From positions 1 through 7,777 of IMG/VR virus record IMGVR_UViG_2703718812_000020: a stretch of 7,777 nucleotides of DNA; one strand, given 5' to 3'. This stretch comes from a virus (lineage: Duplodnaviria > Heunggongvirae > Uroviricota > Caudoviricetes). A program made the translations under genes and the position numbers. Numbering within the stretch: the stretch's first letter is position 1; every line of letters starts with the position of its first letter. The notes below the pieces were generated by a model. It did no database searches. It was not told the origin of the DNA and worked only from the letters and a program-made list of their open reading frames with translations. Shown in pieces: positions 6,780 through 7,560 of this stretch.

Positions 6780-6860
6780 AATTATTATCATTTTGCGGGT
6801 CCTTTCCGGCGATCCGACAGGTTACGGGGCGGCGACCTCGCGGGTTTTCGCTATTTATGA
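6780..6860 (+). other. cos: lambda-type cohesive-end site: cosQ-side sequence, cosN with the 12-nt cohesive end GGGCGGCGACCT at 6827-6838, and the start of cosB
   Basis: gcgggtcctttccggcgatccgacaggttacg + gggcggcgacct + cgcgggttttcgctatttatga matches the lambda right-end/left-end junction as recalled. Sequence beyond about 6860 diverges from lambda cosB. Confidence 0.85.
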
Positions 6861-7053
6861 GATTTTTTGAGGGGGAGTTGTTGTTTAATTGTTTGGTATA
6901 TCTAATTGATAAGTAAGGTGAAAATAAAATAAATACAACAACCTTACGATGTGTTTTGATGTCGTCAATGCGAAAAATGTCAATGATATCAAATGGTTTT
7001 GTAAAAACACATGGTTGTTGTATCGCTTTTTATCGATGGCTTATGGAGAGGAG

Positions 7054-7560
7054 ATGGCCTTTTTATTGAATAAAAGTGATATGGCCTCCTCCATCGGTAT
7101 ATCTGTTCAGGCATTTGATAAATGGGGCGTTCCTCCTGTTGAGCGTCGGGGGAGGGAAGTTTTTTATGACGTTAAAACTGTACTGGAGATAGATCGCGAG
7201 CGGCGACAACACAATCAGAGAATACCTGATGACGAGGGCGATCTGGAGGAAAGGCTGCTTCGGGCCAGAGCTGAACTGACAGAAGAACAGGCCGTAGCTC
7301 AAAAACTTAAAAATCAGGTAACCGAAGGTAAGCTTATTGACACCGGATTCTGTATTTTTGCCCTCAGTAAGCTGGCAATGGCGTTATCCAGTACGCTTGA
7401 TTCCATCCCTTTATCCATGCAGCGACAGTTTCCTGATTTAACACCGCGCCATCTTGACCATCTGAAAACCCTTATTGCTAAGGGGGCAAATCAGTGTGCG
7501 CGGGCAGGGGATAAATTACCGGATTTACTTGATGAATATATCAGAGCAACAACTGAATAA
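7054..7560 (+). CDS. nu1: terminase small subunit (Nu1-like); alternative upstream starts at 7036 or 6949
   Basis: The C-terminal two-thirds (...TGFCIFALSKLAMALSSTLDSIPLSMQRQFPDLTPRHLDHLK...LPDLLDEYI) is close to lambda Nu1; the N-terminal DNA-binding region is diverged. GGAG lies 5 nt upstream of ATG 7054. Located just downstream of cos, as in lambda. Confidence 0.88.
   Translation: MAFLLNKSDMASSIGISVQAFDKWGVPPVERRGREVFYDVKTVLEIDRERRQHNQRIPDDEGDLEERLLRARAELTEEQAVAQKLKNQVTEGKLIDTGFCIFALSKLAMALSSTLDSIPLSMQRQFPDLTPRHLDHLKTLIAKGANQCARAGDKLPDLLDEYIRATTE

What the first reader, a model, noticed from the sequence alone, without database searches (positions are those of the whole stretch)
6780..7560. 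Lambda-identical cosN/cosQ flank joined to a divergent cosB and a terminase small subunit with a diverged N-terminal domain
The cohesive-end sequence and roughly 50 bp on its right-end side are essentially lambda, but sequence from about 22 bp past cosN diverges, and the small-subunit N-terminal DNA-binding region is unlike lambda while its C-terminal region is lambda-like. This matches the mosaicism that sets packaging specificity in lambda versus phage 21.
Basis: partly seen in the sequence, partly recalled or inferred. Interest (0 to 1): 0.4.

Follow-up and report, generated by a model that had tools for sequence, protein, structure and literature searches.

The report
N15/Monarch-type cos in lambdoid prophage
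This is the DNA-packaging start site (cos) and small terminase gene of a lambda-like E. coli prophage, assembled from three swapped modules: a lambda-type cutting site, an N15/"Monarch"-type recognition site with its matching DNA-binding domain, and a third type of enzyme-docking domain. The arrangement is real, but it was already described in 2015.

Summary
cosQ is GGGTCCT (6797-6803). cosN is GGGCGGCGACCT (6827-6838), and the next 22 bp are 100% lambda. Similarity to lambda stops abruptly at bp 35 from the cohesive end.

The divergent cosB is not phage-21 type. It is the N15/"Monarch" type. R3 (6874-6889) matches the experimentally mapped R3 of phage N15 at the same offset. An IHF-like core (6899-6911), an inverted R2 (6933-6945) and a direct R1 (7012-7023) lie at lambda-like positions.

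The small subunit is 7054-7560 (168 aa, Pfam Phage_Nu1). Its DNA-binding domain is 80% identical to N15 gp1, with an identical recognition helix, against 38% to lambda and 22% to phage 21. Its C-terminal half is not lambda-like (45%). It is 100% identical to PhiR12-type phages, and so is the start of the large subunit.

The predicted sites are the conserved blocks across eight E. coli elements with different flanks (Fisher p = 1e-7).

This matches the "Monarch group" of prophages (Feiss et al. 2015): N15 specificity with a lambda-style tripartite cosB. The module occurs in 246 of 5426 complete E. coli genomes and in none of 50,697 phage records.

Side observation: EcCICFT073-family satellites carry this same cos as their second cos site.

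The parts
6491..6860 (+). Lambda-type right-end flank running through cosQ, cosN and the conserved 22 bp beyond it. It ends at the left module junction (bp 34/35).
   Evidence: blastn gives 92.3% to the lambda right end and 94.4% to phage 2H10 over window 6491-6866. It is 100% identical to 2H10 from bp -129 to +34 and unrelated after that. Megablast gives 98.8% to many lambdoid phages over 6700-6867.
6797..6803 (+). cosQ (GGGTCCT), the packaging-termination signal.
   Evidence: Same sequence and same distance from cosN as in lambda. Six of its 7 columns are invariant in 8 E. coli elements with otherwise different flanks. The paper states that the 7-bp cosQ is highly conserved.
6827..6838 (+). 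cosN cohesive-end sequence GGGCGGCGACCT. The nicks fall at 6826/6827 on the top strand and 6838/6839 on the bottom strand, giving 12-nt 5' overhangs.
   Evidence: Unique exact match in the window, identical to lambda bp 1-12.
6839..6860 (+). cosN-proximal conserved segment (bp 13-34, the region of I2), common to all lambda-like cos sites.
   Evidence: 100% identical to lambda and 82% to N15. Twelve of 22 columns are invariant across relatives. [quoted passage not shown]
6874..6889 (+). R3 (GGAGTTGTTGTTTAAT, bp 48-63), the critical TerS binding site of N15 type.
   Evidence: bp 51-63 are identical to N15 at the same offset. R3-N15 was mapped experimentally to bp 48-59 (GAGGTT|GTTGTT), and scrambling bp 54-59 costs 100-fold in yield (PMC4669245). 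Twelve of 16 columns are invariant in relatives. The core is also conserved upstream of N15-type terS genes in 8 other gammaproteobacterial genera.
6899..6911 (-). I1, an IHF-type core (TATCAATTAGATA on the minus strand, 1 mismatch to WATCARNNNNTTR). An A/T-rich tract at 6912-6934 lies 5' of it on that strand.
   Evidence: Pattern scan. It has the same strand and nearly the same position (bp 73-85) as the best lambda I1-region matches (bp 74-91, minus strand). The TTGATAA core is invariant and 10 of 13 columns are invariant in relatives. IHF binding itself is inferred.
6933..6945 (-). R2, an inverted R sequence (minus strand AAGGTTGTTGTAT).
   Evidence: Exact GGTTGTTGT on the minus strand at 6935-6943. 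It lies at bp 109-117, against lambda R2 at bp 109-120. ACAACAACCT is invariant and 11 of 13 columns are invariant in relatives.
6987..6999 (+). Second conserved IHF-like block (TATCAAATGGTTT) between R2 and R1. Its role is unknown.
   Evidence: 1-mismatch IHF consensus match. ATCAAAnnGTTT is kept in all relatives and 8 of 13 columns are invariant.
7012..7023 (+). R1, a direct R sequence (TGGTTGTTGTAT), presumed accessory TerS site.
   Evidence: Exact GGTTGTTGT at 7013-7021. It forms an 18-nt, 83% inverted repeat with R2. Nine of 12 columns are invariant. It lies at bp 187-195, 32 bp further out than lambda R1.
7054..7188 (+). terS codons 1-45: the N15-type winged helix-turn-helix DNA-binding domain, with recognition helix region GISVQAFDKWGV.
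   Evidence: 36 of 45 residues are identical to N15 gp1, against 17 of 45 for lambda and 10 of 45 for phage 21. The only phage DNA matches are N15 and Enterobacter phage MStein-2023a, at about 76%. The domain is 98-100% identical in E. coli relatives that have different C-termini.
7054..7560 (+). terS, the terminase small subunit (168 aa), Nu1 family.
   Evidence: Pfam PF07471 Phage_Nu1 at 76.2 bits (cut-off 30), residues 6-149 on profile positions 4-163 of 164. RefSeq annotates it as 'terminase small subunit' in identical genomes.
7264..7560 (+). terS 3' part: the PhiR12-type oligomerisation and TerL-binding module. The right module junction lies at about 7190-7264.
   Evidence: Megablast gives 94.2% to the PhiR12 phages from 7264 to the end of the window. 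Residues 95-168 are 100% identical to PhiR12_1 and 45% to lambda and N15.
7532..7777 (+). 5' end of terL, the large terminase subunit. It overlaps terS by 29 nt and runs off the window.
   Evidence: The translation MNISEQQLNNMMSAV... is identical over all 81 compared residues to PhiR12_1 gpA. RefSeq annotation in O103:H2 12009 agrees.

Best explanation
The region is the functional cos site and the terS/terL start of a lambda-like prophage with N15/'Monarch' packaging specificity.

Proposed mechanism:
- A dimer of the TerS N-terminal winged-HTH domain reads the GGTTGTTGT-type R sequences.
- IHF bends the DNA at I1, so that R3 (direct) and R2 (inverted) can be docked by the two recognition helices. 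R1 acts as an accessory site.
- The TerS C-terminal domain holds its cognate, PhiR12-type TerL. TerL nicks cosN 12 bp apart and produces lambda-identical cohesive ends.
- cosQ directs termination at the next cos.

In evolutionary terms the locus is a three-module mosaic:
1. A lambda/2H10-type flank with cosQ and cosN.
2. An N15-type cosB together with the TerS DNA-binding domain. These two must travel together because they recognise each other.
3. A PhiR12-type TerS C-terminus together with TerL. These two dock on each other.

Shown here: the sequence identities, site positions, orientation, conservation, junctions and family membership. Inferred from lambda and N15 genetics: TerS and IHF binding, the bent nucleoprotein complex, and the actual packaging specificity.
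For: 1. cosN and cosQ are exact, and bp 1-34 are 100% lambda.
2. bp 51-63 are identical to N15 in the same register as the experimentally mapped R3-N15, bp 48-59 (PMC4669245).
3. The R core GGTTGTTGT occurs at 6876(+), 6935(-) and 7013(+). The whole window has 9 hits at <=1 mismatch against 2.25 expected, reached by 0 of 200 shuffles. A triple 8-mer appears in only 0.7-2.2% of shuffled cosB sequences.
4. The geometry superimposes on lambda for R3, I1 and R2, including strand.
5. Footprinting across 8 E. coli elements with different flanks and different cosN shows invariant runs exactly on cosQ, R3, the IHF core, R2 and R1. Invariant columns are 42 of 54 inside the sites and 45 of 129 outside (Fisher p = 1.2e-7). 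Spacers carry indels that are not multiples of 3, so the region is non-coding.
6. The DBD is 80% identical to N15 with an identical recognition helix, and the protein belongs to Pfam Phage_Nu1.
7. Helix and R3 are co-conserved in 8 distant gammaproteobacterial genomes. They also co-vary in the CB8671 element, where the helix is VSATAFDKWGV and the R sites are GGTGGTGGT / GGTTGGTGT.
8. The modules are independent. FDAARGOS_1058 has the same DBD (98%) but a different TerS C-terminus (59%) and a different TerL N-terminus. PhiR12_1 has the same C-terminus and TerL but an unrelated DBD and cosB.
9. A laboratory hybrid, lambda-N15hy4 cosQ-lambda cosN-lambda cosB-N15, gives a wild-type burst (111 versus 120 pfu/cell). 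This shows that such a combination works (PMC4669245 Table 4).
10. The context is a complete lambda-like head and tail gene set.
Against: - No experiment exists for this cosB. The paper itself says the behaviour of the complex N15-type cosB 'awaits further studies'.
- The IHF cores are 1-mismatch matches to a loose consensus, which is only modestly enriched in the window (21 hits against 12.9 expected).
- R3 in this allele reads AGTTGTTGT, where its relatives have GGTTGTTGT. It also sits 1 bp closer to cosN than in most E. coli relatives, although in the same register as N15.
- R1 is 32 bp further out than in lambda.
- No sequenced phage isolate among 50,697 records carries this tripartite cosB, so it is not shown that such prophages produce virions.
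- I could not read the primary description of Monarch (Virology 2015). Identity with the named prophages is therefore unverified.
Confidence: 0.85

Rival explanations
1. The locus has phage-21-type, or a lambda/21 hybrid, packaging specificity.
For: Same overall layout: a shared cosQ/cosN with a divergent cosB and TerS N-terminus. Phage 21 gp1 aligns with the C-terminal half at 38-40%.
Against: Blastn at word size 11 finds no match between 6860-7270 and the phage 21 records X02501 and M23775. The DBD is 22-23% identical to 21 gp1 and 80-82% to N15. The phage 21 R sites are of the CCGACATGAAA / GTTTTCATG kind, unrelated to GGTTGTTGT.
Confidence: 0.01
2. The site is functionally a simple N15-type cosB. 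Only R3 matters, and R2, R1 and the IHF-like cores are dispensable leftovers or chance repeats in A/T-rich DNA.
For: N15 itself packages with R3 alone (PMC4669245). In 7 of 8 distant genomes terS starts right after R3, so the simple type is the widespread one. A triple 8-mer arises in about 1-2% of shuffles of this A/T-rich segment. The CB8671-type element lacks R1.
Against: R2, R1 and the TTGATAA core are invariant across elements whose spacers, flanks and cosN have diverged or carry indels. Their positions and orientations reproduce the lambda R3-I1-R2 geometry. The remote rR2 that accompanies the simple type in N15 is absent here. In lambda, R2 and R1 contribute measurably to packaging.
Confidence: 0.1
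3. It is a decayed cos of a defective prophage. It is recognisable by sequence but no longer used.
For: STEC genomes hold many defective lambdoid prophages. O103:H2 12009 shows pseudogenes and an IS element near this prophage. No isolated phage carries this cosB. R3 has a G-to-A change at the first core position relative to relatives.
Against: terS and terL are intact, as is a complete lambda-like head and tail gene set. The 781-bp region is at least 99% conserved in 243 genome records. The cosB/DBD module is found in 246 genomes, with site-specific conservation that indicates selection. The critical bp 54-59 GTTGTT is intact.
Confidence: 0.08
4. It is the cos of a phage satellite (a PICI) rather than of a phage.
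For: EcCICFT073-family islands carry nearly the same complete cos. Similarity is 92% over 205 bp in STEC2018-607 and 78% in AR_0085.
Against: In the window the cos is followed by a full-length terS and terL. In identical genomes portal, protease, decoration, capsid and tail genes follow, and lysis genes precede it. No integrase-primase island context is present.
Confidence: 0.01

Closest known systems
'Monarch' group of N15-like prophages (Feiss et al., Virology 2015; summarised in PLoS One 2015, PMC4669245)
   Same: TerS recognition helix identical to N15. R3 strongly matches R3-N15. cosB is complex and tripartite, with R2 inverted relative to R3 and R1 and an IHF site between R3 and R2. There is no rR2 inside terS. 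All of these were checked here.
   Different: I could not obtain the Monarch sequence or accession, so identity or near-identity is untested. The papers I could read do not mention the PhiR12-type TerS C-terminus/TerL module or the exact lambda/2H10-type left flank of this instance.
Phage N15 cos and gp1 (simple cosB)
   Same: Same R3 core in the same register (bp 51-63 identical). The DBD is 80% identical with an identical recognition helix.
   Different: In N15, terS starts at bp 89 and the only other site is a remote rR2 at bp 249-260. N15 has no I1, R2 or R1. Its cosN differs from lambda at 2 of 12 positions, and its TerS C-terminus is 84% lambda-like. Here terS starts at bp 228, I1, R2 and R1 are present, cosN is identical to lambda, and the C-terminus is 45% lambda-like.
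Phage lambda cos and gpNu1
   Same: Identical cosQ and cosN, and bp 13-34. The order and orientation R3(+)-I1(-)-R2(-)-R1(+) are the same, at nearly the same coordinates for R3, I1 and R2. The protein belongs to the same Nu1 family.
   Different: The R sequences are unrelated (CGTTTCCTTTCT in lambda, GGTTGTTGT here). The DBD is 38% identical and the C-terminus 45%. R1 lies 32 bp further out.
Phage 21 cos and gp1 (the classical alternative specificity)
   Same: The same principle applies: shared cosQ/cosN with a cosB plus DBD module of a different specificity.
   Different: There is no sequence relationship in cosB. The DBD is 22% identical.
Laboratory hybrid lambda-N15hy4 cosQ-lambda cosN-lambda cosB-N15 (phage 1197, PMC4669245)
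   Same: The same combination of a lambda cosQ/cosN with an N15-type cosB and a chimeric TerS carrying the N15 DBD. It is fully viable.
   Different: The hybrid has the simple cosB-N15 and a lambda TerS C-terminus and gpA. The window has the complex cosB and a PhiR12-type C-terminus and TerL.
EcCICFT073-family PICI cos sites (cos1 with Rpp, and cos2)
   Same: Conserved cosQ and cosN. Some islands carry the same Monarch-type R3-I1-R2-R1.
   Different: Those are roughly 10-kb satellites without terL. cos1 is read by an Rpp-TerS heterodimer (PMC6739421). The window is a phage locus.

Membership tests
Lambda-like cos sites (12-nt 5' cohesive ends) | [quoted passage not shown] | tested here: met
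   GGGCGGCGACCT at 6827-6838, 12 of 12 identical to lambda. The flanking ..TTACG|GGGC.. and ..ACCT|CGCG.. are also identical. The cutting itself was not tested.
Lambda-like cos sites (12-nt 5' cohesive ends) | A 7-bp cosQ upstream of cosN at the lambda spacing. | tested here: met
   GGGTCCT at 6797-6803, which is bp -29 to -23 as in lambda. It is conserved in all relatives.
Monarch group (N15 specificity, complex cosB) | A TerS recognition helix identical to that of TerS-N15. | tested here: met
   Residues 15-26, GISVQAFDKWGV, are identical in the window and in N15 gp1.
Monarch group (N15 specificity, complex cosB) | An R3 strongly matching R3-N15 at the R3 position (about bp 48-59). | tested here: met
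   Window bp 48-59 is GGAGTTGTTGTT against N15 GAGGTTGTTGTT (10 of 12). bp 51-63 match at 13 of 13, and the critical bp 54-59 GTTGTT is identical.
Monarch group (N15 specificity, complex cosB) | [quoted passage not shown] | tested here: met
   6876-6884 (+), 6935-6943 (-), 7013-7021 (+). They are conserved in relatives.
Monarch group (N15 specificity, complex cosB) | [quoted passage not shown] | tested here: met
   A 1-mismatch WATCARNNNNTTR match at 6899-6911 (-), with an adjacent A/T tract and an invariant TTGATAA core. This is a sequence-level test only; binding was not tested.
Monarch group (N15 specificity, complex cosB) | No rR2 sequence inside terS. | tested here: met
   No GGTTGTTGT(T) match at <=1 mismatch in 7054-7560. 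The only 2-mismatch hit is at 7545, not at the N15 position. The N15 rR2 was recovered by the same scan, at bp 249 on the minus strand.
Monarch group (N15 specificity, complex cosB) | Sequence relatedness to the named Monarch prophage itself. | not testable with these tools
   The primary paper (PMC4461450, PMID 25956737) is not held, and no accession is given in PMC4669245.
N15-type simple cosB | A single R3 directly followed by terS (start at about bp 89), plus a remote rR2 in terS. | tested here: not met
   terS starts at bp 228. I1, R2 and R1 intervene, and rR2 is absent.
Phage 21 packaging specificity | 21-type R sequences and a gp1-type recognition helix. | tested here: not met
   No blastn match to the phage 21 cos records. 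The DBD is 22% identical. The R motifs are different.
Nu1-family terminase small subunit (Pfam PF07471) | A profile match above the gathering threshold that covers both the N-terminal DBD and the central/C-terminal region. | tested here: met
   76.2 bits against a cut-off of 30, residues 6-149 on profile positions 4-163 of 164. A weak phmmer alignment to lambda TerS 6hn7_B is in the same register.
Nu1-family terminase small subunit (Pfam PF07471) | The gene lies immediately upstream of, and overlaps, a gpA-type terL. | tested here: met
   terL starts at 7532 and overlaps terS by 29 nt. It is homologous to the lambda gpA N-terminus.
PICI cos-rpp system | The cos is followed by a 139-154 aa Rpp that lacks a TerL-binding C-terminus, inside an integrase-primase island. 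| tested here: not met
   The cos is followed by a full-length 168-aa TerS and by terL, in a phage late-gene context.

The most novel reading that the evidence does not exclude
This N15/Monarch-type cosB may be more than a prophage curiosity. It may be one of a small set of interchangeable 'cos cassettes' that EcCICFT073-family satellites install as their second cos site (cos2).

In CFT073 itself, cos2 carries a complete PhiR12-type cosB that matches a resident prophage. In sister islands (AR_0085, Z0117EC0133) the same slot carries the complete Monarch-type R3-I1-R2-R1. In STEC2018-607 one cos of each type is present and rpp is gone.

If cos2 is a helper-matched, Rpp-independent packaging site, then prophages like the one in this window (Monarch DBD with PhiR12-type TerL) are natural helpers of such islands. 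The published puzzle of what cos2 is for would then have an answer.

A second, weaker novel reading concerns direction of evolution. The R3-only architecture is found from Erwinia to Oceanospirillales, and the tripartite one was seen here only in E. coli among the collections searched. The complex cosB may therefore be a derived elaboration of a simple ancestor, the reverse of the published proposal that N15 arose from a Monarch-like ancestor by deletion.
Probability: 0.3. Interest if true: 0.5.

Novelty: already known. Interest (0 to 1): 0.2.

Why it matters
Packaging specificity decides which DNA a terminase will cut and load. In E. coli strains that carry several lambdoid prophages and satellites, as STEC O103, O111, O121 and O145 do, it therefore determines which elements can be co-mobilised, can interfere with one another, or can be hijacked.

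This locus is a clean natural example of the modular rule worked out with lambda/21 and lambda/N15 laboratory hybrids:
- cosB travels with the TerS DNA-binding domain.
- The TerS C-terminus travels with TerL.
- cosQ and cosN are common currency.

Published experiments show that N15-specific terminase packages lambda DNA while lambda terminase cannot package N15 DNA. A prophage of this type might therefore be an asymmetric packager of neighbouring lambda-type prophages, though this is an inference.

The finding is confirmatory rather than new.

Tried and rejected
- The primary description of the Monarch group (Virology 482:260; PMC4461450, PMID 25956737) is not held. I used the same laboratory's open-access PLoS One paper instead.
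- The ORF-list start at ATG 6949 (203 aa) is rejected. It would run through R1 and a spacer that carries non-triplet indels in relatives.
- The PGAP start at 7081 in strain 12009 is also rejected. It would cut off helix 1 of the wHTH, and four other related E. coli genomes are annotated from the 7054-equivalent codon.
- The fourth exact GGTTGTTGT, at 6591-6599, looked like a possible remote R site. It is present at the same place in lambda and 2H10, which have lambda-type specificity, so it is a coincidence of the shared flank.
- A sequence search of solved structures gave only a marginal hit to lambda TerS (E = 0.48). The Pfam match was sufficient, so I ran no structure prediction.
- The genome-contig scan returned only 8 loci, all at 37-48% identity, and no E. 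coli locus. It was useful for showing co-conservation of helix and R3 but not for counting.
- Two 50-kb fetches of CFT073 missed EcCICFT073 before the third found it.
- The large protein databases, the RNA tools and the structure tools were not needed.
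Full report
**What is in the window.** The window is the late region of a lambdoid prophage. It holds a large ORF (659-2380), a holin (2571-2879), a lysozyme (3916-4449), an Rz-type gene (5008-5586), a non-coding stretch, a Nu1-family small terminase gene and the start of the large terminase gene. The 6780-7560 segment is 100% identical to E. coli O103:H2 12009 and to other STEC and non-STEC genomes. In those genomes a complete lambda-like set of head and tail genes follows it.

**Checking the observation.** The unique 12-mer GGGCGGCGACCT lies at 6827-6838. I anchored the window, lambda and N15 on that base.
- Window versus lambda is 92-94% identical over the 130 bp to the left.
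- It is at random level from bp 35 onward.
- cosQ (GGGTCCT) sits at 6797-6803, at the lambda spacing.
- The lambda-like flank is 376 bp long (6491-6866), not about 50 bp.

Phage 2H10 has lambda-type R sequences. It is 100% identical to the window from bp -129 to +34 and unrelated afterwards. The boundary is therefore a sharp module junction. Identity through bp 34 alone would not prove that, because this stretch is conserved in all lambda-like cos sites. It is 82% identical in N15, and the literature calls cosQ, cosN and I2 strongly conserved.

**What the divergent part is.** Among 50,697 phage records no megablast match covers 6868-7264. A more sensitive search finds only the 5' end of gene 1 of phage N15 and one Enterobacter phage, and no match to the phage 21 cos records.

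The published R3 of N15 is bp 48-59, GAGGTT|GTTGTT. Scrambling bp 54-59 reduces yield 100-fold (PMC4669245). The window has GGAGTTGTTGTT at bp 48-59, and bp 51-63 are identical to N15 in the same register.

The core GGTTGTTGT occurs at 6876-6884 (+, one mismatch), 6935-6943 (-) and 7013-7021 (+). Between the first two lie IHF-consensus matches with one mismatch. The better conserved one is at 6899-6911 on the minus strand, with an A/T tract beside it.

In cohesive-end coordinates, the sites compare as follows:

| Site | Window | Lambda |
|---|---|---|
| R3 | 50-58 (+) | 53-64 (+) |
| I1 | 73-85 (-) | about 74-91 (-) |
| R2 | 109-117 (-) | 109-120 (-) |
| R1 | 187-195 (+) | 155-166 (+) |
| terS / Nu1 ATG | 228 | 191 |

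So this is a lambda-style tripartite cosB written with N15-type R sequences.

**Is it more than chance?** Three copies of some 8-mer arise in 0.7-2.2% of shuffles of this A/T-rich 193-bp segment. That is suggestive on its own, and the stronger evidence is comparative. E. coli genomes contain a graded series of relatives of this cosB, from 97% down to about 75%.

I aligned eight of them, which have different left flanks and even different cosN sequences. The fully invariant runs of six or more columns fall exactly on cosQ, the R3 core, TTGATAA (the IHF core), R2 and R1. Invariant columns are 42 of 54 inside the four predicted cosB sites and 45 of 129 outside them (Fisher p = 1.2e-7). Spacers carry 1-bp and 10-bp indels, so the region is not coding.

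A further conserved block (ATCAAAnnGTTT, 6987-6999) lies between R2 and R1 and is unexplained. A fourth exact copy of the core, at 6591, is also present in lambda and 2H10 and is a coincidence.

**The protein.** The small subunit starts at ATG 7054. A Shine-Dalgarno sequence precedes it, the start is conserved as ATG or GTG in relatives, and PGAP calls it in four related E. coli genomes. The protein is 168 aa and matches Pfam Phage_Nu1 at 76 bits over nearly the whole profile.

Identities to the window protein, by region:

| Region | N15 | Lambda | Phage 21 | PhiR12_1 |
|---|---|---|---|---|
| Residues 1-45 | 80% | 38% | 22% | 11% |
| Residues 95-168 | 45% | 45% | 38% | 100% |

The helix-turn-helix segment GISVQAFDKWGV is identical to N15. 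For comparison, N15's own C-terminus is 84% lambda. All 81 N-terminal TerL residues compared are identical to PhiR12_1.

PhiR12_1 has an unrelated DBD and a different cosB repeat (CCGGACATG, three copies). A relative, FDAARGOS_1058, keeps the N15-type DBD (98%) but has another TerS C-terminus (59%) and another TerL N-terminus.

The locus is therefore a three-module mosaic:
1. A lambda/2H10-type flank with cosQ and cosN.
2. An N15-type cosB with its DBD.
3. A PhiR12-type TerS C-terminus with TerL.

The junctions lie at bp 34/35 and at about 7190-7264, in the linker after the DBD. That is where the domain boundaries known from lambda/21 chimeras would place them (PMC9026076).

**How it most likely works.** The mechanism is inferred by homology with lambda and N15. 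A TerS DBD dimer docks on R3 and the inverted R2 across an IHF-induced bend at I1, with R1 as an accessory site. The TerS C-terminus tethers its cognate TerL, which nicks cosN. cosQ serves termination.

Support:
- The site geometry matches lambda.
- The helix and R3 are co-conserved in Pseudocitrobacter, Erwinia, Aeromonas, Pseudomonas, Oceanimonas, Halomonas and an Oceanospirillales genome.
- They co-vary in the CB8671 element, which has helix VSATAFDKWGV and R sites GGTGGTGGT / GGTTGGTGT.
- The laboratory hybrid cosQ-lambda cosN-lambda cosB-N15 with an N15-DBD TerS grows like wild type.

Binding, bending and specificity themselves were not tested here and have not been published for the complex version.

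**Comparison with what is known.** Feiss and colleagues described exactly this class. [quoted passage not shown]
- a recognition helix identical to N15 and a strong match to R3-N15;
- a complex cosB analogous to lambda's, with three R sequences, R2 inverted, and an IHF site between R3 and R2;
- no rR2.

Each of these features was tested here and met. The same scan recovered N15's rR2 and found none at that position in the window. I could not obtain the Monarch sequence, so identity with the named prophages is untested.

The locus fails the tests for phage 21 specificity, for the simple N15 cosB and for a PICI cos-rpp unit. It is wrong about the partner (N15/Monarch, not 21) and about the C-terminus (PhiR12-type, not lambda-type).

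**Distribution.** The cosB plus DBD module is present at 80% coverage or more in 246 of 5426 complete E. coli genomes. It is in none of the 50,697 phage records apart from N15-type phages with the simple cosB. In the eight more distant genomes the N15-type helix and R3 come with a simple cosB. Pseudocitrobacter has one extra inverted copy. This distribution fits a simple ancestral state at least as well as the published deletion scenario, but the sample is small.

**Side observation.** The weaker cosB matches lie in roughly 10-kb islands carrying integrase, primase, ssb, perC, capsid and decoration genes. I located EcCICFT073 in CFT073 and confirmed that these islands belong to the same family.

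These islands carry two convergent cos sites, as published for EcCICFT073: cos1, used with Rpp, and cos2, which has no assigned role and in which no phage cosB was recognised (PMC6092414, PMC6739421).
- In CFT073, cos2 carries a complete PhiR12-type cosB, homologous to that of a resident prophage.
- In AR_0085 and Z0117EC0133 the corresponding slot carries the complete Monarch-type R3-I1-R2-R1.
- In STEC2018-607 one cos of each type is present and rpp is missing.

This suggests that cos2 is a helper-matched phage cos cassette. I did not test the idea further.

**Verdict.** The finding is real and its coordinates are accurate. It is a well-preserved example of a known, experimentally grounded kind of packaging-specificity mosaic, so its interest is low to moderate. 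The satellite connection is the only element that might go beyond the literature.

Noticed in passing
L019/L024 (NZ_CP075697 STEC2018-607), L020/L025 (NZ_CP029741 AR_0085), L021 (NZ_CP098183 Z0117EC0133): Roughly 10-kb EcCICFT073-family satellites (int, alpA-like HTH, icd-like, primase/helicase, ssb, perC, capsid, decoration) carry a complete Monarch-type cos: cosQ, cosN, R3 GGTTGTTGTTTAATTG, the TTGATAA core, R2 and R1. Identity to the window's cosB is 92% and 78%. No N15-type terS lies next to it, and a second, convergent cos sits 600-830 bp away.
   Followed up: partly
L030 47529-48339 (NC_004431, E. coli CFT073; EcCICFT073 = L030 37931-48655): In EcCICFT073, cos1 (cosQ at 47529, + strand) precedes the 144-aa Rpp-like gene. 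The published cos2 (cosQ at 48339, - strand) has no assigned function. It carries a complete PhiR12-type cosB (three CCGGACATG repeats), homologous to the cosB of a resident CFT073 prophage (cosQ at L030 8504; its TerS is identical to that of PhiR12_1). The papers state that no phage cosB was recognised in the island.
   Followed up: partly
L006 1063-1797 (phage PhiR12_1, PV340549); also L030 8504-9238: PhiR12-type phages represent a further packaging-specificity type. cosQ and cosN are lambda-identical, cosB has three CCGGACATG-type repeats (-,+,+), and the TerS N-terminal domain is unrelated to lambda, 21 and N15 (10-17% identity). Pfam Phage_Nu1 matches only residues 49-150. The C-terminal half and TerL are the same as in the window.
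   Followed up: partly
L022 (NZ_CM144244 CB8671) 859-1576; L026 (NZ_CP080246 SYNB1934, Nissle derivative) 1601-2276: A related satellite type encodes its own 180-aa TerS. Its DBD is 61% identical to the window's (measured for CB8671), with an altered recognition helix (VSATAFDKWGV) and correspondingly altered R sites (R3 CTGGTGGTGGTTT, R2 GGTTGGTGTAT). It has no R1. This looks like helix/R-site co-variation.
   Followed up: partly
L008-L015 (Pseudocitrobacter, Erwinia, Aeromonas x2, Pseudomonas, Oceanimonas, Halomonas, Oceanospirillales), about 1380-1680 in each: The N15-type helix (GISVQAFDKWGV or near) and the R3 core GGTTGTTGTTT about 50 bp after a cosN-like site are co-conserved across distant Gammaproteobacteria. 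Nearly all have the simple architecture, with terS starting right after R3. The simple cosB may therefore be ancestral, contrary to the published idea that N15 derives from a Monarch-like ancestor.
   Followed up: partly
L016 (SE11), L017 (OkiPb01709), L021 (Z0117EC0133), L022 (CB8671), around cosN: Elements with the same Monarch-type cosB have different cohesive-end sequences, for example GGGCGGCAGGCG, GGGCGTCAGGCG, GGGCGTCGACCT and GGGTCGGTAGACG-like. The last also changes the left half and the bp 13-22 flank. cosB specificity and cohesive-end sequence therefore assort independently.
   Followed up: no
window 6987-6999: A second IHF-like block (TATCAAATGGTTT) between R2 and R1 is conserved in all eight aligned elements (ATCAAAnnGTTT). 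No role for such a site is mentioned in the descriptions I could read.
   Followed up: partly
window 6591-6599: A fourth exact GGTTGTTGT lies 236 bp upstream of cosN, inside the YlcI/YnfO-family ORF on the minus strand. The same sequence is present at the same place in lambda and in phage 2H10, so it is unrelated to N15-type specificity.
   Followed up: yes
window 7054 versus 7081; L007 20302: RefSeq (PGAP) starts terS at the internal ATG 7081 (159 aa) in O103:H2 12009. In SE11, OkiPb01709, FDAARGOS_1058 and STEC1585 it uses the 7054-equivalent start (168 aa). The shorter call would remove the first helix of the DNA-binding domain.
   Followed up: yes
L028 34715-35481 (NC_004431 CFT073, icd-integrated prophage): A second CFT073 prophage carries a phage-21-type cos and a TerS identical to gp1 of phage 21. 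One strain thus holds 21-type and PhiR12-type prophages plus a satellite with cos1 and a PhiR12-type cos2.
   Followed up: no
window 659-2380; L007 13752-15601: The 573-aa ORF upstream of the lysis genes ends at the same position as a CDS that RefSeq annotates in O103:H2 12009 as a frameshifted DUF6645-domain pseudogene starting 128 bp further upstream. The window copy may also be a truncated or frameshifted version.
   Followed up: no
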